A DNA stretch of 64,000 nucleotides from an uncultured Alphaproteobacteria bacterium (GTDB lineage Bacteria; Pseudomonadota; Alphaproteobacteria; SP197). Position numbers and translations under genes: made by a program. The notes below the pieces were generated by a model. That model was not told the DNA's origin and searched no databases. It saw only the letters and a list, made by a program, of their open reading frames with translations. Below are positions 29,315-47,733 of this stretch, piece after piece. The first letter of the stretch is position 1; every line of letters begins with the position of its first letter. The stretch is from assembly GCA_943787175.1 (NCBI GenBank), contig CALSLK010000021.1, positions 9,482-73,481 on the forward strand. Reading direction: 5' to 3'.

Positions 29315-29391
29315 TGGTCGGGGCGCCAAGATTCGAACTTGGGACCCCCTGCTCCCAAAGCAGGTGCGCTACCAGGCTGCGCTACGCCCCG
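29315..29391 (-). tRNA. tRNA-Pro (anticodon TGG)
   Basis: Reverse complement CGGGGCGTAGCGCAGCCTGGTAGCGCA...anticodon loop TTTGGGA...GGTTCGAATCT...CGCCCCGACCA. Confidence 0.85.
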
Positions 29392-32420: not shown

Positions 32421-32683
32421 TGTTCTCGCTTGTTACATTTCTGGTCGTGATCGCCATGGCCATGACCCTGATCCGCGCGGTACGTGGCCCAACGCCCTAT
32501 GACCGCATTCTTGCGGTCAATGTTCACGGCACAATGACCGTGCTGTTGATCGCCCTGGCAGGTTTCCTGACCGATCGCCCGGATTTCCTGGACCTGTCTC
32601 TGGCTTACGCCTTGCTCAATTTTGTCGGCACGCTTGCAGCACTCAAATTCTTCAAGCACGGACATCTGGGTGAAGAGTCGTGA
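32420..32683 (+). CDS. mrpF: monovalent cation/H+ antiporter subunit F (MrpF/MnhF)
   Basis: 87 aa, three-TM protein; ATGA overlap with mrpE. Confidence 0.7.
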   Translation: MFSLVTFLVVIAMAMTLIRAVRGPTPYDRILAVNVHGTMTVLLIALAGFLTDRPDFLDLSLAYALLNFVGTLAALKFFKHGHLGEES

Positions 32684-33024
32684 GCCTGGCCATCGACATC
32701 CTCAGTGGTATCTGCCTCTTCACCGGTGCTGTCTTGATGATCATCAGCGCCCTTGGCGTGATCCGTCTGCCTGATCTCTTCACCCGTCTTCACGGTGCCA
32801 GCATTGCCGATACCGGCGGCGCATTCCTGCTGCTGATCGGCATGGTCTTGCAGGCTGATACCTTTCTGGTGGCGATCAAGCTGGGGTTGATCGGGATTGT
32901 TCTCTTTTTCACCGCACCCACGGCCAGTCATGCCGTTGCTCATGCCGCTCTGATCGGAGGGCTCTCACCGGATGACCCCAAAGCTAATCAGGGCAAGGAT
33001 GAAGCAGAAGAGGATCGCACCTGA
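32680..33024 (+). CDS. mrpG: monovalent cation/H+ antiporter subunit G (MrpG/MnhG)
   Basis: 114 aa; GVIRLPDLFTRLHGASIADTGG pattern. Confidence 0.7.
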   Translation: MSLAIDILSGICLFTGAVLMIISALGVIRLPDLFTRLHGASIADTGGAFLLLIGMVLQADTFLVAIKLGLIGIVLFFTAPTASHAVAHAALIGGLSPDDPKANQGKDEAEEDRT

Positions 33025-33566
33025 TGGAGCGTTTGCACGTCATTGTTCTGGTCATTCTGCTGATCGCGCTTGCCGTTACGCTGATCAGGCTGCGCAGCCT
33101 GCTTGCGATTGCAATTCTGACCGGCGTCTACAGCCTGATCATGGCGGTTGTTTATACCCTGCTCGATGCCGTTGACGTTGCCTTCACCGAAGCCGTCGTC
33201 GGTGCGGGCATCACGCTTACCCTGATGTTGGCCGCGATATCCCTGACAACCCGGAGCGAAACCAAGCCCGGCAAACGCACGAAACAACGTGCCGTCGGTG
33301 CCGTTACCGCGTTGGCCGCAGGCATGGCGTTGATCTATGCGACCACCGACATGCCGGGCCTGGGCGATGCGGACGCGCCCGTCCATCTTCATGTCGCTCC
33401 CTACTACATTGAGGTAGGCCCGATCGAGACGGGTGTTCCCAATATCGTGACCGCCATTCTGGCAAGCTATCGTGGTTTTGATACCCTGGGAGAAGTTGCG
33501 GTCATCTTCACTGCCGGGATCAGTGTCATGGCGTTGTTGTGGCGTTGGGGCAAGGACGACCGATGA
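33024..33566 (+). CDS. DUF4040 membrane protein (free-standing MrpA C-terminal / MbhD-like domain)
   Basis: 180 aa hydrophobic protein in the position occupied by MbhD in Mbh/Mbx-type clusters. Confidence 0.5.
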   Translation: MERLHVIVLVILLIALAVTLIRLRSLLAIAILTGVYSLIMAVVYTLLDAVDVAFTEAVVGAGITLTLMLAAISLTTRSETKPGKRTKQRAVGAVTALAAGMALIYATTDMPGLGDADAPVHLHVAPYYIEVGPIETGVPNIVTAILASYRGFDTLGEVAVIFTAGISVMALLWRWGKDDR

Positions 33567-33985
33567 GCGAACATCTGATCGTCCGCGTGGTGAGCAAGAT
33601 GCTCATTCCGTTCATTCTGCTGTTTGCGCTCTATGTGCAGATGCACGGTGACTATGGCCCCGGCGGCGGCTTCCAGGCCGGCGTGATCTTTGCCACGGCG
33701 TTCATCATCTATGCCATCGTTTTTGGCGTGAAACGTGCCATTCGTGTTATGCCGCTCACAGTCCTGACCGCCATGGTGTCCCTGGGCCTGGTTCTCTATG
33801 CAATGGTGGGGTTCGTCTCGCTCGCTGCCGGCGGCACCTTTCTGGATTACGGTGCGCTCGACAGCCATGATCCCGTACATGGCCAGCATCTGGGCATCAT
33901 CATTATTGAACTTGGGGTCGGCATCACGGTTGCCGGTGTTCTGACCGCGATCTTCTTTACCTTTGCCGAACGATGGCAGAAATGA
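33563..33985 (+). CDS. mrpB: Na+/H+ antiporter subunit B (MrpB/MnhB)
   Basis: About 140 aa; four TM; ATGA overlap with the preceding ORF. Confidence 0.6.
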   Translation: MSEHLIVRVVSKMLIPFILLFALYVQMHGDYGPGGGFQAGVIFATAFIIYAIVFGVKRAIRVMPLTVLTAMVSLGLVLYAMVGFVSLAAGGTFLDYGALDSHDPVHGQHLGIIIIELGVGITVAGVLTAIFFTFAERWQK

Positions 33986-34347
33986 TCGAGGTCCTTACCT
34001 ACATCACCGAACATGCCGTGCAGTGGGGTGCAGTCGTCCTGCTGATGCTGGGCCTCTACATTGTCATGACGCGCGGCAATCTGATCAAGAAGGTGATCGG
34101 CCTCAATATCTTTCAGACTGCTGTCTTCCTGCTCTATATCTCCATTGGCTACGTTCTTGATGGTGCCGCACCTATCGTGCTGGAAGGTGCAGAGCGCTAC
34201 TCGAACCCATTGCCCCATGTTCTGATCCTCACAGCCATCGTGGTTTCGGTCGCAACGACGTCCCTGGCACTCGCTCTGATCGTGCGGATTCAAGAAGCCT
34301 ATGGTTCGATCGAGGAAGACGAAATTCTCGAGCACGGCGAGACATGA
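33982..34347 (+). CDS. mrpC: Na+/H+ antiporter subunit C (MrpC, NuoK-like)
   Basis: About 120 aa; NuoK/MnhC-like three-TM protein. Confidence 0.7.
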   Translation: MIEVLTYITEHAVQWGAVVLLMLGLYIVMTRGNLIKKVIGLNIFQTAVFLLYISIGYVLDGAAPIVLEGAERYSNPLPHVLILTAIVVSVATTSLALALIVRIQEAYGSIEEDEILEHGET

Positions 34348-34351
34348 CCTG

Positions 34352-35830
34352 ATGTCCATCGTCGAACATCTCCCAGCCCTGCAGGTTGCCGTTCCGCTGA
34401 TCGCCGCGCCGCTCTGCGCCATGATGCTTCGTCCAAGCATTGCATGGCCGTTTGCGGTCCTGGCGTCCTGGATCACCTTTGCCATTTCCGTTGCCCTGAT
34501 GGATCAGGTCCTCAGCCACGGAACGATCACCTACAACATGGGTGGCTGGTCCCCTCCCTGGGGCATCTCCTATGTCATCGACCCGCTCAACGCGCTGCTG
34601 TTGTTGCTGGTCTCGGGCATGGCCGCGATCATCATGCCGGGTGTGCGCCTTGGCATCGGCGTCGAAGTTACGTTTCGCGCGCAACGCCTGTTTTTCACGG
34701 TCGCACTGCTGTCTCTGACCGGCATGCTGGGCATCGTCATCACCGGTGATGCCTTCAACCTCTATGTGTTTCTGGAGATTTCGTCACTGTCGAGCTACGC
34801 GCTAGTCGCGATGGGCTCGGACCGGCGAGCGTCCAAGGCGGCCTTCAACTATCTCATCCAGGGAACAATCGGCGCGACCTTCATTCTGATCGGCATTGGC
34901 CTTGTCTACATGATGACAGGGACGCTCAATATGGCCGATATGGCCAACAGGCTGACCGATCTCCACGGCTCGGCAACCGTACAGGCAGCCTTTGCCTTCA
35001 TTCTGGTCGGTGCCGGCATCAAGTTCGCCATGTTCCCGGCGCACGCATGGATGCCCAACGCCTACACCTATGCGCCTTCGCTGGTCTCAGCCTTCTTTGG
35101 CGCAACAGCTACCAAGGTTGGCGCCTATATCCTGATCCGCTTCATCTACGATGTCTTTGGTGCCGAGTTTGCCTTTGACGAGATGCATGTCGGTTGGGTG
35201 TTGATCCCTCTTGGACTGGCCGGCGCCTTTGTTGGATCCCTGGTGGCGATCTGGCAGGACGATCTCAAACGCATGCTCGCCTATTCCAGCGTGGCCCAGA
35301 TCGGCTATGTCGCTGCCGCGATTGGCCTGGGAAATCATGACGGTCTCATTGCAGCGATCGTCCACGTCTTCAATCACGGCCTGATGAAGGGCGCTCTGTT
35401 CCTGGTCACCGCATGCGTCATCCTGCGCCTGGGCCGTGCCGACATGACAAGTTTCAGAGGACTGGGCAAACGCATGCCGGTCACTATGGGCTGTTTCGTG
35501 GTGGCAGGCCTGTCCATGATCGGCGTGCCCTTCACAGTGGGCTTTATCAGCAAGTGGTACCTGATCCTGGGTGCACTGGATGCCGATATGTGGCCCGTCG
35601 CAGTTCTGATCGTGATGAGTTCGCTGCTGTCGATCATCTATATCTGGCGCGTCGTCGAAGTCGCCTATTTCAACGACCCGCCCGATGATGTGAAGGTTAC
35701 GGAAGCGCCCGCCATGCTTCTGGTGCCGACCCTGATCCTGACCGTATTGTGCATTGCCTTTGGTGTAGCCACCAAGATCACCGTTGGTGTCGCAGGATTG
35801 GCCGCCAACAGTCTTGGGGTCTATCCATGA
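34352..35830 (+). CDS. mrpD: proton-conducting membrane transporter, MrpD/NuoN-like antiporter subunit
   Basis: 493 aa; NuoL/M/N-family core (FNLYVFLEISSLSSYALVA, YSSVAQIGYV). Confidence 0.75.
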   Translation: MSIVEHLPALQVAVPLIAAPLCAMMLRPSIAWPFAVLASWITFAISVALMDQVLSHGTITYNMGGWSPPWGISYVIDPLNALLLLLVSGMAAIIMPGVRLGIGVEVTFRAQRLFFTVALLSLTGMLGIVITGDAFNLYVFLEISSLSSYALVAMGSDRRASKAAFNYLIQGTIGATFILIGIGLVYMMTGTLNMADMANRLTDLHGSATVQAAFAFILVGAGIKFAMFPAHAWMPNAYTYAPSLVSAFFGATATKVGAYILIRFIYDVFGAEFAFDEMHVGWVLIPLGLAGAFVGSLVAIWQDDLKRMLAYSSVAQIGYVAAAIGLGNHDGLIAAIVHVFNHGLMKGALFLVTACVILRLGRADMTSFRGLGKRMPVTMGCFVVAGLSMIGVPFTVGFISKWYLILGALDADMWPVAVLIVMSSLLSIIYIWRVVEVAYFNDPPDDVKVTEAPAMLLVPTLILTVLCIAFGVATKITVGVAGLAANSLGVYP

Positions 35831-37311
35831 TGCCCCTTCCCGATCCAGGTTGGCTGGCAGCGATAGCCATCGTCATTCCGCTTCTGGGCGTCGTCGGCAT
35901 TTTGACCACAAGGCGCTGGCCCGACGTGCGTGAAGGCATCAGCCTTGCTGCGGGCAGCGTTCTTTTCTGCGCCGTGATGACTATCGCCATGGCGATGGAG
36001 AGCGGCGAGACCGTTCATTTCGAGCTTGCCCGCCCGCTGACAGGCGTCACCATCGCTCTGACCGTGGACTCACTTGGTCTGTTGTTCGCGATTGTTGCGA
36101 GCTTCCTGTGGATCGTCACAACAGTTTATGCGATCGGCTACATGCGTGGGCATCACGAGAAGAACCAGACACGGTTCTACACGTTTTTTGCCGTCGCCAT
36201 TGCCTGTGCCATGGGCATCGCCTTTGCAGGCAACATGCTCACGTTATTTGTCTTCTATGAGGCTCTGACGATCTCAACCTTCCCGCTGGTCACCCATGCC
36301 GGCACACCCGAAGCACGTAAAGCAGGGCGCACGTATCTGGGAATTCTCCTGGGTACCTCCATCGGCTTTCAGATGATTGCCATCATCGGAACCTATGCAG
36401 TGACCGGAACCCTCGATTTCCGTGACGGCGGCATTCTGGAGGGGAACGTCTCCCATGGCGTCGCCGGCGTGTTGCTCCTTCTCTATGTCTATGGCGTCGG
36501 CAAAGCCGCTCTGATGCCCTTCCACCGCTGGCTGCCTGCAGCCATGGTCGCCCCGACACCAGTCAGTGCGCTTCTCCATGCTGTTGCCGTAGTCAAAGCC
36601 GGTGTCTTTACTATGTTGAAGGTCGCCACCTTCATCTTCGGTTTCGACCTGCTGAGCGAACTGCCGATGACGCAGGTCCTACAATGGATTGCCGCCTTCA
36701 CGATCATTGCGGCGTCGCTGGTAGCCATGACCAAGGACAACCTGAAGGCCAGGCTGGCCTATTCCACGATCAGCCAGCTTGCCTACATCGTGCTAGCCGC
36801 GCTGCTTGCCAACGAGGCCGGTTTCCTTGGCGGCGGCCTCCATATCGCGACCCATGCGGCCGGCAAGATCACGCTGTTTTTCTGCGCTGGCGCCATTCTG
36901 GTCGCCGCACACAAGACCGACATCTCCCAGCTCGATGGTCTGGGCCGGGTCATGCCCTTCACCTTTGCTGCCTTTCTGGTCGGCAGTCTCAGTATCATCG
37001 GCCTGCCTCCGTTCGGAGGCCTGTGGAGCAAGTGGCTCATTCTCGATGGCGCACTGGAAGCCGACAAACTGTTCCTTGTCGGTGTTCTGTTGGTCTCGAC
37101 TCTGCTCAACATCGCCTATCTGTTGCCCATCCCATTCCGCGCGTTTTTCAGGCCTCTGCCCGAAGGTGCCCCGGCAACGCGCAACGAAGCACCGGTCGCC
37201 TGCCTTGCGGCAATCGCTGTGACCTGCCTGTGTTGCCTCCTGCTGTTCCTCTTCCCTGACCCTGCGATTGATCTGCTGGGCCGAACCTTCGCTGGCGTGG
37301 GGTCTCCGTAA
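35827..37311 (+). CDS. second MrpD/NuoM-like antiporter subunit
   Basis: 495 aa; LFVFYEALTISTFPLV, YSTISQLAYIVLA; ATGA overlap with the upstream mrpD. Confidence 0.7.
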   Translation: MMPLPDPGWLAAIAIVIPLLGVVGILTTRRWPDVREGISLAAGSVLFCAVMTIAMAMESGETVHFELARPLTGVTIALTVDSLGLLFAIVASFLWIVTTVYAIGYMRGHHEKNQTRFYTFFAVAIACAMGIAFAGNMLTLFVFYEALTISTFPLVTHAGTPEARKAGRTYLGILLGTSIGFQMIAIIGTYAVTGTLDFRDGGILEGNVSHGVAGVLLLLYVYGVGKAALMPFHRWLPAAMVAPTPVSALLHAVAVVKAGVFTMLKVATFIFGFDLLSELPMTQVLQWIAAFTIIAASLVAMTKDNLKARLAYSTISQLAYIVLAALLANEAGFLGGGLHIATHAAGKITLFFCAGAILVAAHKTDISQLDGLGRVMPFTFAAFLVGSLSIIGLPPFGGLWSKWLILDGALEADKLFLVGVLLVSTLLNIAYLLPIPFRAFFRPLPEGAPATRNEAPVACLAAIAVTCLCCLLLFLFPDPAIDLLGRTFAGVGSP

Positions 37312-37559
37312 TGAACGACAAGAAGACCTATCTGTTCGACAAGCCCCGCAATGTGAAGCTGGTCATCTGGACACTCGTGCTGGCTTGCGCTGGAACGCTG
37401 ATTGCAGACGTCTTTGCGCACCGACATGTCGATCATCCCTGGGAATCGATGTTCGGCTTCTATGCCGCGTTCGGCTTCGGCGCCTATGCCCTGCTGGTTC
37501 TTGTTTCCGAAGGCATTCGTTTCCTCGTGCAACGACGCGAAGGTTACTACGATGATTAG
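37311..37559 (+). CDS. small two-TM membrane protein of unknown function inside the Mrp cluster
   Basis: 82 aa ORF translationally coupled on both sides (TAATG and ATGATTAG overlaps). Confidence 0.4.
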   Translation: MNDKKTYLFDKPRNVKLVIWTLVLACAGTLIADVFAHRHVDHPWESMFGFYAAFGFGAYALLVLVSEGIRFLVQRREGYYDD

Positions 37560-39249
37560 CGTCGCGCCGTTCCTGATCTTCCTGGTCGGCGCTGCACTCG
37601 CCATGGTGGCCCGTGGTCGCTTGCGCGATGTCATCGCAGTTGCCACACCGGTCGTTGGCGCGATCAATCTCTGGGCGCTCGACGGCAGCGCACCGATGAC
37701 CGTGATGCTGTTTGGCCACGGGTTGATCCTGGTCGAAGTTGACCGGCTCTCCATGCTGTTTGGATGGCTGTTCCATCTCGCCGTCTTCGTGGCCCTGGTC
37801 TACAACCTCTATCGCCCGACCAAGCTGGAGCAGGTCTCCATTCTGACCTATGGCGCCAGCACCATGGGCGCGATCTTTGCGGGGGACCTGCTGACCCTGC
37901 TGCTGTTCTGGGAAGGCCTGGGCCTGACCTCTGTATTCCTTGTGCTGGCGCGCGGCACGCTCAGGGCCGAACGCGCTGCGGTGCGTTACCTGATGCTGCA
38001 GGTTTTGTCAGGCGTGCTGTTGATGTGCGGCATTATCGTGCTGATCAATCAGGGACGTTCGCTTGCCATTACACCGTTGGAGCTTGAAGGCCTGGCAGCC
38101 TGGCTGATTTTCCTTTCCCTGGGCATCAAGGCCGGCTTCCCGCTGCTCCATAACTGGATCACCGACACCTATCCCGAAGCGACCGAGACCGGCACGGTGA
38201 TCATGAGTGCGCTGACCACCAAGACGTCGATCTATTGTCTGGCCAGTCTGTTTCCGGGCACGGAACTGCTGATCTACATCGGCGCAACAATGACCGTGTT
38301 CCCAATATTCTATGCCGTACTCGAAGACGATCTGCGGCGGGTTCTGTCCTACAGCCTGATCAATCAGCTGGGGTTCATGATCACCGGAATCGGGATCGGC
38401 ACGGAACTGGCCATCAACGGAGCGGTGGCGCATGCCTTTGCTCATGTGATGTATAAATCACTGCTCTTCATGTCGATGGGTGCAGTGCTCTACCGGACTG
38501 GCAAGATTGGCGCATCGGAGCTGGGTGGGCTTTACCGCACCATGCCCAAGACCACGATCATGTGCATCATCGGTGCGGCCTCGATTTCAGCCTTCCCGTT
38601 GTTCTCGGGATTCGTGTCAAAAGCCATGGTGATGAGTGCAGCTCTTCAGGGAGGTTACGACTGGGTCTGGCTCGCCCTGTTGTTTGCTTCAGCTGGCGTC
38701 CTGCACCACGCCGGAATCAAGATTCCGTTCTTTGCGTTCTTCGGTCATGATTCCGGGCAGCGGCCCAAGGAAGCACCAAAGCCCATGTTGATTGCCATGT
38801 TCATCGCATCGGTGATGTGCATCGGCATCGGAATCTTTCCGGGCCTGCTGTATGACATGCTTCCCTACCCCGTCACCTATGAGCCTTACACGTTCGAGCA
38901 TGTGCTGACGCAGCTCCAGCTTCTGCTCTTTGCGGCTTTGTGTTTCGTGGTTCTGCGCGTCACCAAACTGGAGCCTCACGAAAGGCCCGGGGTCAACCTC
39001 GATATCGAGTGGACCTATCGCTGGCTCCTGCCCCGTGCAGGCCGCTGCGGGTACGCAATCCTGGAACGCATCATCCACCCGCTCCGCCAGCTTTCGCAGA
39101 TCGGCATGCAAAGTTCGGTTTGGCTGGTCAAACTCTGGCACGGACCAGGCGGCCTGTTCGCGCGCGACCCTCTGATCAGTTCGGCGTCCCTTGCCGTTGT
39201 CGTCATCTTCACACTGGTCTTGCTGATCGACCTGATCCAGGGTTTTTGA
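37552..39249 (+). CDS. mrpA: MrpA/NuoL-like antiporter subunit lacking the C-terminal MrpB-like extension
   Basis: 566 aa; NuoL-family core (LLLFWEGLGLTSVFLV, YSLINQLGFMITGIG). Confidence 0.7.
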   Translation: MISVAPFLIFLVGAALAMVARGRLRDVIAVATPVVGAINLWALDGSAPMTVMLFGHGLILVEVDRLSMLFGWLFHLAVFVALVYNLYRPTKLEQVSILTYGASTMGAIFAGDLLTLLLFWEGLGLTSVFLVLARGTLRAERAAVRYLMLQVLSGVLLMCGIIVLINQGRSLAITPLELEGLAAWLIFLSLGIKAGFPLLHNWITDTYPEATETGTVIMSALTTKTSIYCLASLFPGTELLIYIGATMTVFPIFYAVLEDDLRRVLSYSLINQLGFMITGIGIGTELAINGAVAHAFAHVMYKSLLFMSMGAVLYRTGKIGASELGGLYRTMPKTTIMCIIGAASISAFPLFSGFVSKAMVMSAALQGGYDWVWLALLFASAGVLHHAGIKIPFFAFFGHDSGQRPKEAPKPMLIAMFIASVMCIGIGIFPGLLYDMLPYPVTYEPYTFEHVLTQLQLLLFAALCFVVLRVTKLEPHERPGVNLDIEWTYRWLLPRAGRCGYAILERIIHPLRQLSQIGMQSSVWLVKLWHGPGGLFARDPLISSASLAVVVIFTLVLLIDLIQGF

Positions 39250-39340
39250 CTAGCAGCTTCGCCGGTTTGAATGTGCACCGGCTTGACGTAAGTTTCCGCC
39301 ACGTTGACTTCCGTGAACAGCCAACCAGAAAGAGATACGC

Positions 39341-39976
39341 ATGGATCTTGCCGGTGAGTACCGTATCGAAGCCCCGCGCGATGCCGTCTGGCAGGCGCTG
39401 AACGATGCAGATGTGCTCAAGCAGTGCATTCCTGGTTGTCAGGAGATCGAGAAGGAGTCCGACACCGCATTCAATGCCAGGGTGAAGTCCAAGATCGGCC
39501 CGGTTTCTGCAACCTTCAAGGGCAAGGTGACGCTCTCGGAACTGGATCCGCCCAACGGCTATACGATATCCGGTGAAGGCCAAGGTGGCGTCGCCGGTTT
39601 TGCCAAGGGTGGCGCGCGCGTAAGCCTGGAAGAGGACGGCGCGGCAACCATGCTGCGTTATACGGCCGACGGACAGGTAGGTGGAAAACTGGCACAGGTC
39701 GGTGCACGCCTGGTGGAAGGAACCGCCAAGAAAGTCGCTGACGATTTCTTCACCCGATTCAACGAACTGGTTTCGCAACAGGCCGCAAGCCAGCCTGTTG
39801 TTGAACCCACTATGGCAGCAGCAACGACTTCACCGGAACGCGCAGCACCAACGCCTGCGCCTGCTCCAAATGGACCAGCGCGTGAACCGCAACCCACCTT
39901 GCTGGAAAACTGCTGGTTCGGACTTGCAGGCGTGACACTGCTGGTCCTATTCGTCATGGCGGGCCTTCCCCAATGA
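39341..39976 (+). CDS. coxG: CoxG-like SRPBCC protein (CO dehydrogenase subunit G family) with a C-terminal hydrophobic anchor
   Basis: N-terminal roughly 150 aa with a CoxG/SRPBCC pattern, a Pro/Ala linker and a C-terminal TM helix [15 protein letters not shown]. Confidence 0.6.
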
Positions 39977-40031
39977 TGTACTTGACCCATGGCCGCATGC
40001 CTTCGACACTCTGCCCGGTCAGACAGGAGAT

Positions 40032-40514
40032 TTGCCCATGACAATCACCGTATCCATGACGGTGAATGGCGAGGAACGCAGCGGCACGTGCGAGGAACGC
40101 ACGCTGCTGGTGACATTCCTGCGCGAGACACTGCGCCTGACCGGAACTCATGTCGGTTGCGACACCAGCCAGTGTGGCGCCTGTGTCGTCCATGTCGACG
40201 GTGAGTCAGTAAAATCCTGCACCATGCTCACGGTTCAGGCAGAGGGCCGCAACGTCACCACGATCGAAGGCGTTGCGGACGGTGACACGCTGCATCCCAT
40301 GCAGCAGGCGTTTCATGAAAATCATGGACTGCAGTGTGGTTATTGTACCCCCGGCATGATCATGAGTGCGCTCGACCTCATCAAACACAACCCTGACCCG
40401 ACAGAACGAGAAATCCGCGAGCACCTGGAAGGCAATCTTTGCCGCTGCACGGGCTACCACAACATCGTGAAATCCATCCGGGCCGCGGCCGACAAGATGG
40501 CAACGGGGGCCTGA
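40032..40514 (+). CDS. coxS: (2Fe-2S)-binding small subunit of an aerobic-type CO dehydrogenase / xanthine dehydrogenase family enzyme
   Basis: Both 2Fe-2S cysteine motifs: [12 protein letters not shown] and [10 protein letters not shown]...CRCTGY. Confidence 0.85.
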
Positions 40515-40516
40515 TC

Positions 40517-41314
40517 ATGTACGCCTTTTCGTTCCACCAGCCCGAAACACTGGAAGAAGCCAAACGCCTCTTCGGTGAAAGCGACGATCCACGCTATCTA
40601 TCGGGCGGTCACACGCTTCTGCCCTCCATGAAACTGCGCCTTGCCACGCCGTCGGACCTGATCGAGCTGAATGCCATCGAAAGCCTCAAAGGCATCAGCA
40701 TTGAAGGCGACAATGTCGTAGTTGGCGCTGGCACCCGTCATGGTGATGTCGCGCAATCAGCCGATGTTCTGGCCGCAATCCCAGCCTTGGCAGATCTGGC
40801 AGGCATGATCGGTGATTTTCAGGTCCGCAATCGAGGAACCCTGGGCGGTTCCATCGCAAATGCGGACCCTGCCGCTGATTATCCCGCCGCCATTGTTGGT
40901 TTGAACGCCACAGTAAAGACTGACCGCCGCGAAATTGCTGCTGATGACTATTTCACCGACCTGTTCGAGACGGCGCTGGAGGAGGACGAAATTGTCACCG
41001 CAGTGTCATTCCCCACGCCGGTACGCGCAGCCTATATGAAATTCCCCAACCCCGCCTCGCGCTACGCCATTGTCGGCGTATTCGTCGCCGAAACAGCCGG
41101 CGGGATACGTGTGGCCGTGACCGGCGCAGGTGCGAGCGTCTTCCGCGTTGTTGAGATGGAAGCGGCACTGACAGTGAACTTCGCACCCGAGGCCGTCGCT
41201 GACATCCTGATTCCTGATGACGACCTCAACAGCGATATCCACGCGGCCAACGACTACCGGGCACATCTGGTGACCGTTATGGCCAAACGCGCTGTTGAAA
41301 AAGCTCTGGGCTGA
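40517..41314 (+). CDS. coxM: FAD-binding medium subunit of the CODH/XDH family (CoxM/CutM-like)
   Basis: FAD_binding_5 pattern (YLSGGHTLLPSMKLRLA, RNRGTLGGSIANADP) and CO-dehydrogenase-flavoprotein C-terminal domain. Confidence 0.8.
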   Translation: MYAFSFHQPETLEEAKRLFGESDDPRYLSGGHTLLPSMKLRLATPSDLIELNAIESLKGISIEGDNVVVGAGTRHGDVAQSADVLAAIPALADLAGMIGDFQVRNRGTLGGSIANADPAADYPAAIVGLNATVKTDRREIAADDYFTDLFETALEEDEIVTAVSFPTPVRAAYMKFPNPASRYAIVGVFVAETAGGIRVAVTGAGASVFRVVEMEAALTVNFAPEAVADILIPDDDLNSDIHAANDYRAHLVTVMAKRAVEKALG

Positions 41315-41388: not shown

Positions 41389-44300
41389 ATGGTCATGCTG
41401 TTCATCAAGGACATGCTTGCATTGATACGGGTCACGGTTCGGCGTTTGTCGATCCTGGTGATCCTGTTGGCGGTCGTTGTTGTCGCAGTCTGGTTTACGG
41501 CACGGTACGAGGTCGTTGACTGGCTTGTTCGTCGTGGCCTCTATGAAACACCAACGCCGATAGCGACTTACGAGGTCGTTGAGGTCCGTACGGACCGCAT
41601 CGTTCTGGGCGGTGTTGCCATCGACGGGTTGCTATGGGCCGATCGGGTCGAGATTGGCTATAGCCTGCGCCAGGCGGTCGACGGCAGGGTTGGCACCATC
41701 GTGATCCGCGGTGCCGTTTTGCAGGTCTCGCTCGACAGTTCGGGAAATCCAACAGGACCTGCAAGCGATTGGGTCGCGATGCTGGCGCAATCTGAGTCCA
41801 GCGGTATGCCTCCGGCTTTTGAAAACGTGGTGCTGGAAAACGGCATCGTTGATGTCACGGCTCCCTGGTTGCATCTGCGCGCGGATGTTGACGGTGCCTT
41901 GAAAAACAGCCTGATTGCCGTTGATGGTGCGGGAACCTGGCTGGCCAGTTCCTCTATGGGTACCACAGAAGGTTCATTTTCCCTCCACGCTCCTCATGGA
42001 GAGAGTTCTCCAGAGATTACGATCGCGTTCGATACAGGCGATCTCGGCTATCAGGAAATGGTCGCGCAAGGGCTGAACGGAACGATTCAGATTGAAGCTT
42101 CGGGGTCGCCTCAAGTCATAGCTGACCTTCAGGCCAGGTCCCTCAGCACCAGAGACCACATCATTGCACCTCTTGCGCTTAGCGCCACTGTCGATGGCGG
42201 CGATGTAGCCGGACATCTGACGCTTGGTGATGATCTCAGCGCGATGTCTGCTTCGATCGACGTCGAGCTGGACATCGCAACACCAAACGCCCCTGCAACG
42301 GTTACCGCGTGGCTGGACCTGCAGGAAGATTTTACATTTCCCGGGCCACACGAAATCGAAATTCTGGCGCCTGCGCGGCTCGATATGAGTCTGGCCGCAA
42401 CGGCGGGCCCGAATGCCACCGGCCTGACGACAGAAGAATTGATTGAAGCTCTGAACGTCACGGGTGCCGTGGCAATGCATGCAGAGGGACTGATCGTCCC
42501 CGAATCAGCTTCATCTGGCCAGGTTGACCTTGCCTTCAAACTGGACATGGCCATGAGCGAAGCGCTCATGGTGCTTGAGGGTCCTGGTCACATAAGCGGC
42601 ATCCGATATGCAGGCAGCGATGCCACAGTGCCTTCGCCGCCTGCAATTCTAGGACAAACTTACGACCTGAACTTTGATGATCGCGGACTGAGGCTTGCAC
42701 TCGGCCCAACGGATGAGGGTTGGGTCGTTAGTCCCAGGATAACGGCACATCTGAGTGGAAGTGAAAACCTCGATGGAACGATATCCATGGGAGGTACTGC
42801 AGCGTTGGGCACCGCGTGGAATTTGCTCCGCACCTCTGTCTCCACATTCGAAGTGGATCTCCAGGGCCACATATGGCCGGAACTTGCGGAAGGATCACTC
42901 CGGGTCGCGTGTCAGGGTGCGGGATCGGGCGAGAACTTTGATGGCTCGTTCAATCTTCAGGGAAGATTCGACACCTTGCGTCTTCAGGGTGCCGAAGCGA
43001 CCGATGTCGAAATCGACTTGCCTTCGAGCATCACACTGGTTGATGGCGTGCTCAGTGGCACGGTGCACCCCATTGCATTGGCGCGGGCAGAAACTTTGTC
43101 ATGGAACGATGTGCGCATGGTCGGACTGTTGGCGGAATGGCCCCTGCGATATGCCTATTCAGATCAGGCGCTGCACATTTACCTGACCGACACCGGTTGG
43201 GTCGACATCGAGAGCCTTCAGCACCCGGCGTTCAAACTGGACGACGCGATGTCCATCAAGTTCGAGCCTGAACACTTGCCCAATGTGGTGATCGAACAGC
43301 CTGGCAAGGACATCAGCTGGGACATACGTTTGTCTCTCGCGCCATCAGATATCGCACTGACACTTTTAGACCCGGTCGCCGGCCAGGAACTCTCGGTCGT
43401 TGGGCAGCTCCCGCATATGGGGATTCGGTTCGGCAGCCTGGGGATCAGTCATCTGCAGGGCACGATGGAGTCCTCGCTTGGCGACCTTCACCTGATAGGT
43501 CCTGACCTGCGCGTCGCTGGCATCAAGCTGCTGGTTAACTATAACGATGGCCTCTCGCTATGGCCTCAGATCAGTGCCGAGGTTCGCAAGTTTGAAGATC
43601 TGCACACCCCGGCTCGATTTGCCCCTATTGTCGCAGATGCGCAGTTTGCTCCGGTTTGGCCTTCGGGTGGTGACCTGCGCATCACCGGCAACCTCCACAT
43701 GCAGGACCGGCGTTATCTTGCCAATGTCGAAGCAAGTTATGAACCCGGGCCAGACCGCTTCATGGCTCTGATTCGAATGCCGCCAATCCAGTTCGAGCCC
43801 GGTGGCTCCCAACCTGTTGATGTGTCACCGCTCTATGGTGCGTTGCTGGAAGACGCCGAAGGTTCCTTCGAGATTCTAGGCAAGCTGGGCTATGAAAACG
43901 GCAGGCCGACATCTGACATAACGCTGTTCCTACAGGGCCTTTCTGGCCGCAATGGCGATGTCGAACTTGCGGACCTCAATGGTGAAATTACTCTGTCAGA
44001 ACTCGCTCCCTGGACCACACCACCATCACAGACCCTGACTGCCGAAATGCTTGATATCGGCGTTCCTCTGACCGATGTCGAACTCTCACTGTCCCTACCA
44101 GGTGACGACAGCCTTTACCTGGAACTGGGCACGGCAGGCTTCGCAGGTGGAAGTGTTGCTGTTGGCCCCTCGGTTCTTCGATTGGGGCCGGGCCAGAACC
44201 GTATGGAACTCGATGTCACTGGCGTCGATCTGGCTCGACTGCTTGCCTATGCCGAGATTCCGGACCTGGAAGTCGACGCCAGATTATCGGGCTCACTGCC

Positions 44301-44667
44301 CTTGATCATCAGCGACGACGACTTTGCCATCGTGAACGGCCATTTGGAGTCCCAGGCAGCCGGGACGCTGCGATATGTTCCCACTGGAACGGATGTTCCG
44401 CTCGACCTTGGCGAAGAAAACGTTGGTTTGGTGCTGGACGCGCTGTCCAACTTTCATTTCAGCAGAATCGCCATGGACGTCAACAAACCCCTGGACGGGG
44501 CCACAGACCTCACGCTCCATGTCGCGGGTGCCAATCCTGATCTCTATGATGGCTATCCCATCGAGCTCAACGTCAACGTGACCGGAGATCTCGACAAGGT
44601 TGTGCGTGACAGCCTGGCAGGTTGGCGCATCTCCGAGGAACTGAAAGAGCGTCTGTCGGGTTTTTGA
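41389..44667 (+). CDS. ydbH: YdbH-like large envelope protein (AsmA-like family)
   Basis: 1092 aa; N-terminal signal anchor; followed by ynbE and ydbL homologues exactly as in the enterobacterial ydbH-ynbE-ydbL operon. Confidence 0.7.
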   Translation: MVMLFIKDMLALIRVTVRRLSILVILLAVVVVAVWFTARYEVVDWLVRRGLYETPTPIATYEVVEVRTDRIVLGGVAIDGLLWADRVEIGYSLRQAVDGRVGTIVIRGAVLQVSLDSSGNPTGPASDWVAMLAQSESSGMPPAFENVVLENGIVDVTAPWLHLRADVDGALKNSLIAVDGAGTWLASSSMGTTEGSFSLHAPHGESSPEITIAFDTGDLGYQEMVAQGLNGTIQIEASGSPQVIADLQARSLSTRDHIIAPLALSATVDGGDVAGHLTLGDDLSAMSASIDVELDIATPNAPATVTAWLDLQEDFTFPGPHEIEILAPARLDMSLAATAGPNATGLTTEELIEALNVTGAVAMHAEGLIVPESASSGQVDLAFKLDMAMSEALMVLEGPGHISGIRYAGSDATVPSPPAILGQTYDLNFDDRGLRLALGPTDEGWVVSPRITAHLSGSENLDGTISMGGTAALGTAWNLLRTSVSTFEVDLQGHIWPELAEGSLRVACQGAGSGENFDGSFNLQGRFDTLRLQGAEATDVEIDLPSSITLVDGVLSGTVHPIALARAETLSWNDVRMVGLLAEWPLRYAYSDQALHIYLTDTGWVDIESLQHPAFKLDDAMSIKFEPEHLPNVVIEQPGKDISWDIRLSLAPSDIALTLLDPVAGQELSVVGQLPHMGIRFGSLGISHLQGTMESSLGDLHLIGPDLRVAGIKLLVNYNDGLSLWPQISAEVRKFEDLHTPARFAPIVADAQFAPVWPSGGDLRITGNLHMQDRRYLANVEASYEPGPDRFMALIRMPPIQFEPGGSQPVDVSPLYGALLEDAEGSFEILGKLGYENGRPTSDITLFLQGLSGRNGDVELADLNGEITLSELAPWTTPPSQTLTAEMLDIGVPLTDVELSLSLPGDDSLYLELGTAGFAGGSVAVGPSVLRLGPGQNRMELDVTGVDLARLLAYAEIPDLEVDARLSGSLPLIISDDDFAIVNGHLESQAAGTLRYVPTGTDVPLDLGEENVGLVLDALSNFHFSRIAMDVNKPLDGATDLTLHVAGANPDLYDGYPIELNVNVTGDLDKVVRDSLAGWRISEELKERLSGF

Positions 44668-44698
44668 CACAAACGCGTGTCAGTAAAGGAAGCAGTAT

Positions 44699-44917
44699 AT
44701 GGAAGTACGCATGAGATCTGACCGCAGACGACTTCTTGCCCTCCCGGTTTTGGCAGTGACCGGCCTGTTTGTGACCGCCTGCCAGCCCACGGTACGTCTG
44801 GAGGCGCCCAAGGAACCGATCGTGATCAATCTCAACGTCAAGATTGAACAGGAAGTTCGGGTCAAACTGGAGAAAGACGTAGAGGCCTTGTTGGAGGATG
44901 ACGATGCACTGTTTTGA
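44699..44917 (+). CDS. ynbE: YnbE family lipoprotein
   Basis: Lipobox FVTAC, then RLEAPKEPIVINLNVKIEQEVRVKLEKDVEALLE, close to E. coli YnbE. Confidence 0.8.
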   Translation: MEVRMRSDRRRLLALPVLAVTGLFVTACQPTVRLEAPKEPIVINLNVKIEQEVRVKLEKDVEALLEDDDALF

Positions 44918-45260
44918 GATAACTCGCCGACGGATGCTGGGCATGATTGCCGGTGCTGCTGCCATGATTGCCTTACCCGGCCTTGCCTTTGCACAGAGCC
45001 TCGATGAAGCCCGTCAACTTGGCTACCTGGGCGAACGCCCCGATGGCTACCTTGCCCAACGTGACCCATCCGCACCGTCCTGGGCGACAGAACTGCTGAC
45101 TGAAATCAACAAGGGCCGCGAGCTCAAATATACGGAACTGGCACTCAAGAACGGGACATCCCTGGACGCGGTGCAGGTGGTTGCCGGCGAGAAGATCATC
45201 CAAAGCCTCGCTCCAGGCACCTACTACATGGACGCAACGGGTAACTGGGTGCAAAAATAG
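44898..45260 (+). CDS. ydbL: YdbL (DUF1318) family periplasmic protein
   Basis: Signal peptide, then LDEARQLGYLGERPDGYL...INKGRELKYTELA...QVVAGEKII, DUF1318 pattern. Confidence 0.75.
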   Translation: MTMHCFEITRRRMLGMIAGAAAMIALPGLAFAQSLDEARQLGYLGERPDGYLAQRDPSAPSWATELLTEINKGRELKYTELALKNGTSLDAVQVVAGEKIIQSLAPGTYYMDATGNWVQK

Positions 45261-45296: not shown

Positions 45297-46217
45297 ATGT
45301 CCCTGCCCTCTTCGATTGATGCGACCGTGGCGCTGCTGGAATCGGCCGACTATGTCGCCGACCGCAGCCTTGCCACCAGTCTTTATCTTGCCCTGACCAT
45401 GGGTCGCCCGTTGTTTCTTGAGGGCGAAGCTGGCGTCGGCAAGACCGAAACTGCAAAGGTCCTGGCTGCAACGCTTGGCCGCGATCTGATCCGGTTGCAG
45501 TGCTATGAGGGCCTGGACGCTGCCCATGCCGTGTATGAGTGGAACTATCCCCGCCAGATGGTCGAGATCCGGCTGGCCGAGGCGAGCGGCCCTGTCGACC
45601 GCGAACAGATCAGCCGCGACATCTATAGCGAAGAATTTCTGGTCCGCCGTCCGATCCTCCAGGCACTAGAAGAGCACGAGGGCGGTCCACCTGTCCTGCT
45701 GATTGACGAACTGGACCGCACAGACGAGCCCTTTGAGGCCTACCTGCTGGAGGTTCTTTCGGACTTTCAGGTCACGATTCCTGAATTCGGCACGATCAGG
45801 GCACAAGAGCCGCCCATCGTCATCATCACGTCAAACCGGACGCGTGAGATTCACGACGCTCTGAAACGCCGATGCCTCTATGCCTGGATCGACTACCCCT
45901 CTGCCGTGCGCGAGCTCGATATCCTGCGGCGCAAGATGCCCAACTGCAGTGAACAGCTGTCTGCAGAGATCGTGGGGTTTGTGCAGGCCCTGCGCGACCG
46001 TGACCTCTTTAAGATGCCCGGCATTGCTGAGACCCTGGACTGGGCCACGGCTCTGGTCAGCCTGGACGCCATGACCCTGAATGCCCAGACGGTCGATGAC
46101 ACACTGGGCGTCCTGCTGAAGTACCAGGACGATATTGCGCGTATCAAAGGCACGGAAGCCGCAGGGCTTCTGGACCAGCTCCGCGCCAACATGGCCGTCG
46201 AAGCGGCCGCCCAATGA
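45297..46217 (+). CDS. coxD: MoxR-type AAA+ ATPase, CoxD subfamily
   Basis: Walker A GEAGVGKTE; Walker B LLIDELDR; MoxR architecture. Confidence 0.8.
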   Translation: MSLPSSIDATVALLESADYVADRSLATSLYLALTMGRPLFLEGEAGVGKTETAKVLAATLGRDLIRLQCYEGLDAAHAVYEWNYPRQMVEIRLAEASGPVDREQISRDIYSEEFLVRRPILQALEEHEGGPPVLLIDELDRTDEPFEAYLLEVLSDFQVTIPEFGTIRAQEPPIVIITSNRTREIHDALKRRCLYAWIDYPSAVRELDILRRKMPNCSEQLSAEIVGFVQALRDRDLFKMPGIAETLDWATALVSLDAMTLNAQTVDDTLGVLLKYQDDIARIKGTEAAGLLDQLRANMAVEAAAQ

Positions 46218-47422
46218 CAGCAACCGACCGCGCCGGTCGGCTGGCCGACAACATCATGCATTTTGCCCGCGCATTACGGGCAACGGGCGTTCCTGTCGGT
46301 CCAGGCAGCGTGCTTGATGCACTTCAGGCCGTCGAGGCCGCCGGCATAAGACGCCGCGAAGATTTTTACTGGACACTGCACAGTGTGTTTGTCCATCGCC
46401 GCGAACAACGCGATCTGTTTGACCAGATATTTCACCTGTTCTGGCGCGACCCCAAACTTCTTGAACGCATGCTGGGGCTTTCGCTTCCTTCGCTTGCGGC
46501 CGATTTCCAAGACCACACGGACCCAGTTGCCCGCCGCGTCGCCGAAGCCATGGGCTTGGGTGACAAGGAAAATCAGGCGCAGGACGACGAGGTCGAGTTC
46601 GATATGACCATGACATTTTCCGATCAGGAAAACCTGCGTCAGATGGACTTTGACGATATGTCGGCAGAGGAGACAGAAGCCGCCAGAAAAGCAATCGCGC
46701 GCATGCGTATGTCCTTCGAACGTATCCGCTCACGCCGCTTGATCCCAAGCTCGACAGGTTCCCGCATCGACCTGCGTCGAACCCTGCGTGAAGCCCCACG
46801 TTCTGCCCACGGCATCATGCCTCTTCATCGCGTTCGCCAGGATCATAGACCGCCTGTCCTGGTACTCATATGCGACATCTCCGGGTCCATGACGGGTTAC
46901 AGCCGCATGCTGATCCACTTTGCTCATGCGCTGACCAACGACCAGCATCGCGTACACACCTTTGCGTTCGGCACGCGCCTGACCAACATCACGCGCGACT
47001 TGCGCAATCGCGATGTTGACCTGGCTTTGACAAAGGTTGCCAAACGGGTCGATGACTGGTCTGGCGGCACCAAGATCAGCGGCTGCCTGCATGACTTCAA
47101 TCGCGACTGGTCCCGCCGGGTTCTTGGCCAGGGAGCCGTTGTGGTGCTGGTGACAGACGGCCTGGACCGCGATACCGATGGCGGCCTGGCGCACGAAATG
47201 ACTCTGCTGCAGCGGTCCTGTCGCAGATTGATCTGGCTGAATCCCCTGTTGCGCTGGCGCGGTTTTGAGCCGAGATCATGGGGAATTCGCACCATGCTTC
47301 CCCATGTCGATGCCTTCAGAGCCTGCCATAATCTCGATAGCCTGGAAGACCTCGCACGTTCCCTTTCCGGCGAGGATCAGAGTGCTGACGAGGAGATGAA
47401 ACGATGGCTGAACGCAGCATGA
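46214..47422 (+). CDS. coxE: VWA domain-containing protein, CoxE family
   Basis: 402 aa; C-terminal VWA with MIDAS DxSGS (LICDISGSM); overlaps coxD stop. Confidence 0.75.
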   Translation: MTATDRAGRLADNIMHFARALRATGVPVGPGSVLDALQAVEAAGIRRREDFYWTLHSVFVHRREQRDLFDQIFHLFWRDPKLLERMLGLSLPSLAADFQDHTDPVARRVAEAMGLGDKENQAQDDEVEFDMTMTFSDQENLRQMDFDDMSAEETEAARKAIARMRMSFERIRSRRLIPSSTGSRIDLRRTLREAPRSAHGIMPLHRVRQDHRPPVLVLICDISGSMTGYSRMLIHFAHALTNDQHRVHTFAFGTRLTNITRDLRNRDVDLALTKVAKRVDDWSGGTKISGCLHDFNRDWSRRVLGQGAVVVLVTDGLDRDTDGGLAHEMTLLQRSCRRLIWLNPLLRWRGFEPRSWGIRTMLPHVDAFRACHNLDSLEDLARSLSGEDQSADEEMKRWLNAA

Positions 47423-47733
47423 ACGAAGACGTCCTGCACATTGCACAGGCCTGGCATGAGGCGGGACAGCGTGTCGCGCTTGCAACCGTCACAGCGACCT
47501 GGGGTTCCAGTCCGCGTCCGGTCGGAAGCTTGCTGGCGGTGCGCGAAGACGGCAGCTTTGAAGGCTCGGTCTCCGGCGGCTGCATCGAGGGTTCCGTGAT
47601 CGGAGAAGCCCGGAATGCCATGTCCGACGGTAAAGTCCGCAATCTTGAATTCTCCGTCAGCAACGAAACCGCCTGGGAAGTCGGTCTGACCTGCGGCGGC
47701 ACCGTGCGTGTCTTTGTCGAGCCGCTATCATGA
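47404..47733 (+). CDS. XdhC/CoxI N-terminal-domain protein (stand-alone)
   Basis: 109 aa; RVALATVTATWGSSPRPVGSLLAV...GSVSGGCIEGSV matches the XdhC_CoxI domain; ATGA overlap with the next ORF. Confidence 0.6.
   Translation: MAERSMNEDVLHIAQAWHEAGQRVALATVTATWGSSPRPVGSLLAVREDGSFEGSVSGGCIEGSVIGEARNAMSDGKVRNLEFSVSNETAWEVGLTCGGTVRVFVEPLS

What the first reader, a model, noticed from the sequence alone, without database searches (positions are those of the whole stretch)
39341..41314. Orphan coxG-coxS-coxM module without a molybdopterin large subunit, immediately downstream of the Mrp cluster
A membrane-anchored CoxG, a 2Fe-2S subunit and an FAD subunit are encoded in tandem. The expected coxL/xdh large subunit (about 780 aa) is absent from the whole 64 kb window. 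At its usual position sits ydbH. Either the catalytic subunit is encoded elsewhere, or the S/M electron-transfer pair serves a different partner. Given the co-orientation and 92-nt spacing from the Mrp genes, one speculative possibility is electronic or physical coupling to the ion-translocating module. CoxG-type proteins are known to tether CODH to the membrane.
Basis: inference. Interest (0 to 1): 0.6.

Follow-up and report, generated by a model that had tools for sequence, protein, structure and literature searches.

The report
Cox-type operon missing its catalytic gene
This is a molybdenum-hydroxylase ("form II CO-dehydrogenase-like") gene cluster that keeps its iron-sulfur, flavin, membrane-anchor and cofactor-maturation genes but has lost the catalytic large-subunit gene from between coxS and coxM; the catalytic subunit is most likely encoded elsewhere in the genome, so this is a modest curiosity rather than a new system.

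Summary
coxG (39341-39976), coxS (40038-40514) and coxM (40517-41314) are real tandem genes, and no large-subunit gene or remnant exists in the 64 kb window.

After an inserted ydbH-ynbE-ydbL operon come coxD, coxE, a split xdhC and a moeA-like/mocA fusion. This is a complete form II cox cluster lacking only coxL.

In 64 of 80 related genomes coxL lies immediately upstream of coxM, usually as S-L-M. In the window only 2 nt separate coxS from coxM. ydbH therefore does not occupy coxL's place. The ydbH insertion also occurs in relatives that keep coxL (L044, L177, L183).

The L-less layout is conserved in at least 12 species-level genomes. It is under strong purifying selection (dN/dS 0.03-0.16) with no rate acceleration.

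Retained Moco-maturation genes imply a large subunit encoded in trans. Orphan form-II-like coxL genes do exist in other alphaproteobacteria. I could not locate the partner gene in this lineage.

Adjacency to a group-3 Mrp cluster is conserved, with gaps of 15-29 nt in three relatives. It is independent of coxL loss and is broken by inversions or insertions elsewhere. No complex-I-type coupling subunits are present.

The parts
31938..39249 (+). Group-3-type Mrp (CPA3) cluster. Gene order: mrpE, mrpF, mrpG, MbhD/MbhE-like protein (C-terminal part of MrpA), mnhB, mrpC, two mrpD-like genes (34352-35830 and 35827-37311), an 82-aa protein with two transmembrane helices (37311-37559), and a third antiporter-like subunit (37552-39249).
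   Evidence: Pfam hits for every subunit. The third large subunit passes the NCBIfam cut-off for PRK12668 'Na(+)/H(+) antiporter subunit D' (658.9 bits against a cut-off of 564). The irregular gene order with several mrpD genes matches 'Group 3' in PMC5703873.
39250..39340 (+). 91-nt spacer between the last Mrp gene and coxG.
   Evidence: No promoter or terminator consensus. No Rfam family. No stable fold (z = +1.48). The spacer is 91 nt in L007, 696 nt in L008, and only 26, 29 and 15 nt in L009, L010 and L011.
39341..39976 (+). coxG: SRPBCC quinone-binding or anchor protein with a flexible linker and a C-terminal transmembrane helix.
   Evidence: Pfam COXG E=9.2e-39. Transmembrane helix at 186-204. 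Matches the PDB CoxG entry 8uds at E=1.7e-12. dN/dS 0.10-0.16.
40038..40514 (+). coxS: small subunit carrying two [2Fe-2S] clusters.
   Evidence: Pfam Fer2_2 and Fer2. All eight cysteine ligands present. Closest solved chains are 4zoh_C, 1ffu_A, 1n5w_A and 8uem_C. dN/dS 0.03-0.06.
40517..41314 (+). coxM: FAD-binding medium subunit. It starts 2 nt after the coxS stop codon, at the place where coxL sits in S-L-M relatives.
   Evidence: Pfam FAD_binding_5 E=1.9e-44. Closest solved chains are 1ffu_C, 4zoh_B and 1n5w_C. dN/dS 0.05-0.07.
41389..45260 (+). ydbH (41389-44667), ynbE (44699-44917) and ydbL/DUF1318 (44904-45260): an AsmA-like envelope lipid-transport operon inserted between coxM and coxD.
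   Evidence: Pfam YdbH-like E=1.7e-64 and DUF1318. Lipoprotein_19 for ynbE. The same insertion occurs with coxL present in L044, L177 and L183 and is absent in L009.
45297..47422 (+). coxD (MoxR-type AAA+ ATPase, 45297-46217) and coxE (VWA protein, 46214-47422).
   Evidence: Pfam AAA/AAA_5 and VWA_CoxE E=7.2e-64. coxD dN/dS 0.06-0.10. The same order follows coxM in Azospirillum and Microvirga clusters.
47404..50030 (+). Split xdhC (N-terminal domain 47404-47733; Rossmann domain 47730-48410) and a moeA-like/MocA fusion gene (about 48410-50030). These are Moco (MCD) synthesis and insertion factors.
   Evidence: Pfam XdhC_CoxI, XdhC_C, MoCF_biosynth and NTP_transf_3. NCBIfam similarity to MocA. 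The gene is called as 539 aa in the JGI contig. The window carries a 1-nt insertion at 48534 relative to that contig.

Best explanation
The locus is a form II CO-dehydrogenase-like cluster of the xanthine-oxidase/molybdenum-hydroxylase family. Its ancestral order was coxG-coxS-coxL-coxM-(ydbH-ynbE-ydbL)-coxD-coxE-xdhC-mocA. coxL has been cleanly removed from between coxS and coxM.

The remaining genes are still functional.
- CoxS (two [2Fe-2S] clusters) and CoxM (FAD) form the electron-transfer limb.
- CoxG ties the enzyme to the membrane and the quinone pool.
- CoxD, CoxE, XdhC and MocA mature a molybdopterin-cytosine-dinucleotide cofactor.

All of this only makes sense if a molybdopterin large subunit is supplied from another locus. 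That subunit could be the relocated orthologue or another XO-family paralogue. It would assemble with this S/M pair into the usual (LMS)2 enzyme and pass electrons from an unknown substrate to quinone.

Shown: gene content, the derived and conserved L-less order, and purifying selection. Inferred: that a trans-encoded L exists and that it pairs with this S/M.

The neighbouring group-3 Mrp antiporter is probably co-transcribed in some relatives. I read it as a conserved neighbour or co-regulated function, not as a physical partner.
For: 1. Family assignment and intact cofactor motifs.

2. The downstream maturation genes coxD, coxE, xdhC and mocA are present.

3. In 64 of 80 species-representative genomes with the closest CoxM, coxL lies immediately upstream of coxM. 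54 of the adjacent CoxL sequences carry AYRGAGR. Cultured Azospirillum and Microvirga show S-L-M-D-E-xdhC-xdhC-mocA.

4. L177 has exactly the window's gene order plus coxL, next to the same Mrp type.

5. Twelve genomes have S directly before M and no L in loci that reach up to 10 kb either side of coxM (several contigs are shorter). They fall in separate parts of an NJ tree of CoxM, each nested among loci that have coxL.

6. dN/dS against L007-L009 is 0.03-0.06 for coxS, 0.05-0.07 for coxM, 0.10-0.16 for coxG and 0.06-0.10 for coxD. CoxS and CoxM of L-less lineages are no more diverged from an outgroup than those of lineages with coxL.

7. Orphan form-II-like coxL genes with no S or M nearby exist.
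   - P0147 lies on 936-kb contigs.
   - P0131 has the same context.
   - P0128 has no coxM downstream and no coxS in the 356 nt before the contig end.
   - Many metagenome loci carry coxD-E-xdhC-mocA with no structural genes nearby.
   - The family's genes are therefore often dispersed.
Against: No large-subunit gene was found for this organism or for any L-less relative. Three protein searches looked for a CoxL on the contigs of L008, L010 or L011 and returned none in their top 120 hits. That test had no power: the expected identity is about 60-63%, below the 66-74% cut of those lists.

The orphan coxL examples come from distant organisms (FabH 66% identical, GC 50%). None has been shown to share a genome with an L-less S/M pair.

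L011 lacks all maturation genes, and L010 lacks coxD and coxE, within 10 kb. The link between S/M and the maturation genes is therefore not universal.
Confidence: 0.7

Rival explanations
1. The S/M pair together with CoxG has become independent of any XO-family large subunit. It would act as a stand-alone flavin/Fe-S quinone reductase or serve a non-molybdenum partner.
For: No L gene was found in about 79 kb around the locus or in the loci of 12 genomes, which reach up to 10 kb either side of coxM. CoxG-like proteins can serve unrelated enzymes: one anchors a G3P dehydrogenase in Sulfolobus (PMC11962113). L011 keeps G-S-M with no maturation genes nearby.
Against: xdhC, mocA, coxD and coxE are retained next to G-S-M in the window, L008, L009 and clade B, and coxD is under purifying selection. 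Their only known role is maturation of a Moco large subunit. CoxS and CoxM show no rate change after the loss of coxL. In every solved homologue S and M are parts of an L-containing complex.
Confidence: 0.08
2. CoxG-S-M couples electronically or physically to the adjacent Mrp ion-translocating module, forming a new redox-driven or redox-regulated cation pump.
For: Same strand, with a 91-nt spacer lacking any terminator. The gap is 15-29 nt in L009-L011. The same Mrp type is adjacent in clade A, L018, L019, the L020 group and L177.
Against: Adjacency does not depend on loss of coxL: L020, L022, L025 and L177 all have coxL. Orientation and contiguity vary. Mrp is divergent from cox in L177, its last two genes are inverted in L019, and unrelated genes intervene in L018 and the L020 group. 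L025 lacks the third antiporter-like subunit. No NuoB/D/H/I-like coupling subunits lie in 29-39 kb. The Mrp cluster is a recognised stand-alone type. Most relatives of the cox cluster have no Mrp nearby.
Confidence: 0.04
3. The G-S-M genes are decaying leftovers of a cluster inactivated by deletion of coxL.
For: The catalytic gene is missing. The window's moeA-like/mocA gene carries a 1-nt insertion relative to another assembly.
Against: dN/dS is 0.03-0.16 at dS of 0.6-2.1. The ORFs are intact and full length in at least 12 species. All cofactor ligands are kept.
Confidence: 0.02
4. Assembly or binning artefact that dropped coxL.
For: The source is metagenomic.
Against: The identical junction appears in independent JGI, Logan and ENA assemblies, in a closed MAG chromosome (L008) and in megabase-scale contigs (L010, L011).
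Confidence: 0.01

Closest known systems
Form II (AYRGAGR) coxSLM 'putative CO dehydrogenase' clusters of Alphaproteobacteria, for example Azospirillum sp. B510 pAB510c AZL_RS25720-25755 and metagenome locus L177
   Same: Homologous CoxS, CoxM, CoxG, CoxD, CoxE, split XdhC and MoeA-like/MocA in the same order. CoxM is 54-62% identical.
   Different: coxL is absent from between coxS and coxM. A ydbH-ynbE-ydbL operon lies between coxM and coxD (shared with L177, L044 and L183). The substrate of form II enzymes is itself unresolved (PMC13240472).
Form I Mo-Cu CO dehydrogenase (Oligotropha/Afipia carboxidovorans coxMSL-coxDEFG; M. smegmatis Mo-CODH with CoxG)
   Same: Same protein families for S, M, G, D and E. 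S and M are the closest solved homologues (1n5w, 1ffu, 8uem). CoxG has the same three-part architecture as the quinone-shuttling CoxG.
   Different: The gene order is S-M, not M-S-L. There is no L, so the AYXCSFR signature cannot be present. The relatives' L subunits are form II. Nothing here indicates CO oxidation.
Orphan form-II-like coxL genes (P0147, P0131, P0128)
   Same: They are the reciprocal situation: an XO-family L encoded with no S or M nearby.
   Different: They come from distant alphaproteobacteria. Co-residence with an L-less S/M pair has not been shown.
Group 3 Mrp (CPA3) Na+/H+ antiporters
   Same: All Mrp subunit families are present, in irregular order and with several MrpD-like genes.
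   Different: An extra conserved 82-aa protein with two transmembrane helices and a third antiporter-like subunit. Conserved neighbourhood with a cox cluster.
Mrp-linked energy-converting oxidoreductases (complex I, Mbh/Mbx, Ni-CODH/ECH)
   Same: An Mrp-type membrane module lies next to a redox enzyme.
   Different: The NuoB/D/H/I-type subunits that link redox chemistry to the antiporter module in those complexes are absent. The redox enzyme here is a soluble XO-family protein that uses CoxG.
CoxG-like membrane anchor of Sulfolobus G3P dehydrogenase (PMC11962113)
   Same: Shows that CoxG homologues can anchor other quinone-reducing enzymes.
   Different: Here CoxG sits in its usual cox context together with S, M and the maturation genes.

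Membership tests
Xanthine-oxidase-family (form II CODH-like) three-subunit molybdenum hydroxylase cluster | Small subunit with two [2Fe-2S] binding motifs | tested here: met
   Pfam Fer2 and Fer2_2. Eight cysteines present at the conserved positions.
Xanthine-oxidase-family (form II CODH-like) three-subunit molybdenum hydroxylase cluster | Medium subunit with the FAD_binding_5 domain | tested here: met
   E=1.9e-44. The GG.TL motif is conserved.
Xanthine-oxidase-family (form II CODH-like) three-subunit molybdenum hydroxylase cluster | Large molybdopterin subunit (Ald_Xan_dh_C + MoCoBD_1 + MoCoBD_2) encoded with S and M, carrying AYRGAGR | tested here: not met
   No such gene or remnant in the window. 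Relatives have it between S and M. Whether it exists elsewhere in the genome could not be tested.
Xanthine-oxidase-family (form II CODH-like) three-subunit molybdenum hydroxylase cluster | Accessory genes for cofactor maturation (coxD, coxE, xdhC/coxF-like, mocA) and coxG | tested here: met
Form I Mo-Cu CO dehydrogenase | CoxL with the (A/S)YRCS(F/L)R active-site loop, and coxM-coxS-coxL order | tested here: not met
   No CoxL is present. The order is S-M. Adjacent L subunits of relatives carry AYRGAGR.
Group 3 Mrp antiporter | All Mrp subunit types present in a non-canonical order with duplicated mrpD/mrpB | tested here: met
   Pfam MNHE, MrpF_PhaF, PhaG_MnhG_YufB, MbhD/MbhE, MnhB, Oxidored_q2, and three Proton_antipo_M hits. 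PRK12668 above its cut-off. Definition taken from PMC5703873. Transport activity was not tested.
Mrp-coupled respiratory complex (complex I / Mbh / Mbx type) | NuoB/NuoD/NuoH/NuoI-like subunits joining the redox module to the antiporter-like subunits | tested here: not met
   ORFs between 29.3 and 39.3 kb give only Mrp families, DUF192 or no family at all.
YdbH-YnbE-YdbL envelope lipid-transport operon | YdbH-like, YnbE lipoprotein and DUF1318 genes in tandem | tested here: met

The most novel reading that the evidence does not exclude
In this marine alphaproteobacterial clade the CoxG-CoxS-CoxM module is transcribed with a group-3 Mrp cluster and no longer works with a molybdopterin large subunit. 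Instead it acts as a flavin/Fe-S quinone-linked module functionally tied to the Mrp ion-translocating complex. That would be a new way of connecting redox chemistry to an Mrp machine without complex-I-type coupling subunits.
Probability: 0.04. Interest if true: 0.85.

Novelty: new variant of a known kind. Interest (0 to 1): 0.3.

Why it matters
Three practical points follow.

1. Annotation and surveys. coxS, coxM and coxG can be present and conserved without an adjacent coxL, and coxL can be present without S or M. Operon-based calls of 'CO dehydrogenase' can therefore be wrong in either direction, and counts based on one subunit can mislead.

2. Enzyme family biology. The result suggests that XO-family enzymes of this type are inherited as separable modules: an electron-transfer limb plus maturation genes on one side, and the catalytic subunit on the other. 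One S/M pair might then serve more than one catalytic subunit.

3. Physiology of form II enzymes. The recurrent neighbourhood of form II cox clusters with an Mrp antiporter and a YdbH-type envelope lipid-transport operon is an unexplained clue to the still unknown role of these enzymes.

None of this changes a textbook picture unless the large subunit proves to be truly absent.

Tried and rejected
1. Looking for the relocated coxL of L-less genomes by protein search. The queries were the L020 CoxL, the L016 CoxL and the orphan P0128. I watched for contig lengths of 3,752,649, 2,681,113 or 1,574,145 bp. None appeared, but each list is cut at 120 hits on a plateau of 66-74% identity. The expected identity is about 60-63%. 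The result is uninformative, not evidence of absence.

2. Screening candidate CoxL clusters for sample identifiers. No accessions were given.

3. Context look-ups of candidate CoxLs. P0078, P0124, P0127 and P0138 are ordinary clusters with coxS upstream (coxM also seen in three; P0127's contig ends just after coxL). P0147, P0131 and P0128 are orphan genes, but in distant organisms.

4. Extending the view beyond the window ends. No coxL.

5. Metagenome scan with CoxD, hoping to find coxD-coxE next to a relocated coxL in L010/L011-like genomes. It was still useful for L177, L183 and L125.

6. Riboswitch, terminator or promoter in the mrp-coxG spacer. Nothing found.

7. Large ORFs near other L-less loci as hidden large subunits. 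They are ankyrin, CoA-ligase, peptidase and bis-MGD-type molybdopterin proteins, not XO-family proteins.

8. A junction-specific DNA pattern scan was designed but not run.
Full report
**What is at the coordinates**

Three co-oriented genes occupy 39341-41314.
- coxG, 39341-39976: Pfam COXG, E=9.2e-39.
- coxS, ATG 40038 to 40514: Fer2_2 E=6.4e-35 and Fer2.
- coxM, ATG 40517 to 41314: FAD_binding_5 E=1.9e-44.

CoxS retains all eight cysteines of the two [2Fe-2S] sites, and CoxM keeps the GG.TL and TLGGS flavin motifs. CoxG has an SRPBCC domain, a Pro/Ala-rich linker and one C-terminal transmembrane helix. This is the architecture of the quinone-shuttling CoxG of M. smegmatis (PMC12202499; PDB 8uds).

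The closest solved homologues of S and M are 4zoh, 1ffu/1ffv, 1n5w and 8uem. All of these are subunits of L-containing molybdenum hydroxylases.

**No large subunit in the window**

- tblastn with four CoxL queries finds nothing even at E<=10.
- A profile of 59 CoxLs run against the six-frame translation gives a best E of 0.5. A control locus scores 1360 bits.
- The only very long ORFs are an H+-pyrophosphatase and YdbH.
- Other assemblies of the same organism show the same order. They show no coxL within about 9 kb and about 5 kb beyond the two window ends.

**The cluster is larger than reported**

Downstream of coxM lie these genes:
- ydbH-ynbE-ydbL, 41389-45260
- coxD, a MoxR-type AAA+ ATPase, 45297-46217
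- coxE, a VWA protein, 46214-47422
- a split xdhC, 47404-48410
- a moeA-like/MocA cytidylyltransferase fusion, to 50030

The locus is therefore a complete cox-type cluster lacking only the catalytic gene.

**Where coxL normally sits**

I scanned species-representative genomes with CoxM, which gave 80 loci, and annotated them by BLAST and Pfam.
- In 64 loci coxL lies immediately upstream of coxM, usually as S-L-M.
- 54 of these adjacent CoxLs carry AYRGAGR, the form II signature.
- Cultured Azospirillum sp. B510 and Microvirga ossetica show S-L-M-coxD-coxE-xdhC-xdhC-mocA.
- Metagenome locus L177 has exactly the window's order, including the ydbH operon, plus coxL between S and M.

In the window, coxS and coxM are 2 nt apart. 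ydbH therefore does not replace coxL. It is an older, separate insertion, also seen with coxL present in L044, L183, L148 and L166, and missing from the L-less relative L009.

**The L-less state is derived, conserved and selected**

Twelve genomes have coxS directly before coxM and no L anywhere in their loci, which reach up to 10 kb either side of coxM (several contigs are shorter).
- Clade A: L007-L011, with CoxM 69-90% identical to the window.
- Clade B: L012, L015, L018 and L019, about 62% identical.
- L030, L049 and L070.
- A metagenome locus, L125, is a further example.

In an NJ tree of CoxM these groups fall in separate places, each nested among loci that have coxL (no support values). 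This suggests more than one loss.

Against L007-L009, dN/dS is as follows (dS 0.6-2.1):

| Gene | dN/dS |
|---|---|
| coxS | 0.03-0.06 |
| coxM | 0.05-0.07 |
| coxG | 0.10-0.16 |
| coxD | 0.06-0.10 |

CoxS and CoxM of L-less lineages are no more diverged from an outgroup set than those of lineages that keep coxL. The genes are working, and their constraints did not change when coxL left the operon.

**Most likely mechanism**

XdhC, MocA, CoxD and CoxE act only on a Moco-bearing large subunit; this rests on established knowledge of these families. Their retention next to G-S-M therefore implies that such a subunit is made from another locus and assembles with this S/M pair. CoxG would then link the enzyme to the quinone pool.

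Dispersal of the family's genes is demonstrably common.
- The form-II-like coxL genes P0147 and P0131 have no S or M within 8-10 kb. P0128 has no coxM downstream and no coxS in the 356 nt before its contig end.
- Many loci hold coxD-E-xdhC-mocA alone.

I could not show the partner gene for this lineage. Three protein searches did not return a CoxL from the contigs of L008, L010 or L011. The expected identity of about 60-63% lies below the cut of those lists, so the test had no power. The orphan coxL examples are from distant organisms.

**The Mrp question**

The upstream cluster is a group-3-type Mrp antiporter. It includes a conserved 82-aa protein with two transmembrane helices.

Findings that allow co-transcription:
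- The 91-nt spacer has no terminator, promoter consensus, Rfam family or stable fold.
- In L009-L011 the gap is only 15-29 nt.

Findings against physical coupling:
- The same Mrp type also neighbours clusters that contain coxL (L020, L022, L025, L177).
- It is divergently oriented in L177 and partly inverted in L019.
- Unrelated genes separate it from cox in L018 and in the L020 group.
- It lacks its third large subunit in L025.
- No NuoB/D/H/I-like coupling subunits are present.
- Most relatives of the cox cluster have no Mrp nearby.

I read the adjacency as a conserved neighbourhood or co-regulation.

**Verdict**

This is a known kind of system in a new gene-content variant: a form II cox cluster without coxL. 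I put 'large subunit encoded in trans' at about 0.7. The exciting readings, L-independent function or Mrp coupling, are not excluded but have no positive support. Interest is modest.

Noticed in passing
window 41389-45260; also L044, L177, L183, L148, L166: A ydbH-ynbE-ydbL (AsmA-like envelope lipid-transport) operon is embedded between coxM and coxD in several divergent form II cox clusters. The association is recurrent and unexplained.
   Followed up: partly
window 48534: A 1-nt insertion (A) relative to the JGI contig of the same organism (L001). It splits the moeA-like/mocA fusion gene (539 aa in L001) and creates a new ATG, leaving a 498-aa ORF. It could be a strain variant, a frameshift or a sequencing error.
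   Followed up: partly
window 37311-37559: An 82-aa protein with two transmembrane helices and no Pfam or NCBIfam match lies between the second mrpD and the third antiporter-like subunit. It is conserved, always paired with that subunit, in relatives down to 28-48% identity.
   Followed up: partly
window 30793-31782: A 329-aa predicted membrane protein (about 5 hydrophobic segments, acidic Pro/Glu-rich C-terminal half) lies just upstream of mrpE. It has no family match and was found only in the closest relatives (L007, L009).
   Followed up: partly
window 47404-48410: XdhC is encoded as two overlapping ORFs, one for the N-terminal XdhC_CoxI domain and one for the Rossmann domain. The split is conserved in relatives, including Azospirillum sp. 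B510 and Microvirga ossetica.
   Followed up: partly
L090/L091 8001-10358; L109 10001-12358: Orphan form-II-like coxL genes sit in a conserved context: hexapeptide-repeat protein, Pel9A-like beta-helix protein, coxL, RDD, P450, hydantoinase. In L109 and L090 this lies just downstream of the rpmF-plsX-fabH-HU-merR block (L109's contig also shows H+-PPase upstream). The window carries that same block at 5.7-13 kb.
   Followed up: partly
L010 and L011 (downstream of coxM): Within clade A the maturation genes are not stable. L010 lacks coxD and coxE, and L011 lacks coxD, coxE, xdhC and mocA within 10 kb of coxM.
   Followed up: no
L134, L149, L154, L184, L191: Metagenome loci carry coxD-coxE-xdhC-mocA with no coxS, coxL or coxM in the DNA held upstream of coxD (10 kb for L134, L149 and L154; less for the others). 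Accessory and structural genes of this family are often unlinked.
   Followed up: no
window 39263-39285 and L007: A short inverted repeat (GCCGG...CCGGC) in the mrp-coxG spacer is conserved between the window and L007. The region as a whole shows no significant fold.
   Followed up: partly
window 108-189, 5588-5661, 28856-28929, 29318-29391 (all - strand): Four tRNA genes. In the JGI metagenome the 5' part of the window (H+-PPase block) and the 3' part (cox region) lie on different contigs (Ga0309783_1000172 and Ga0309783_1000968).
   Followed up: no
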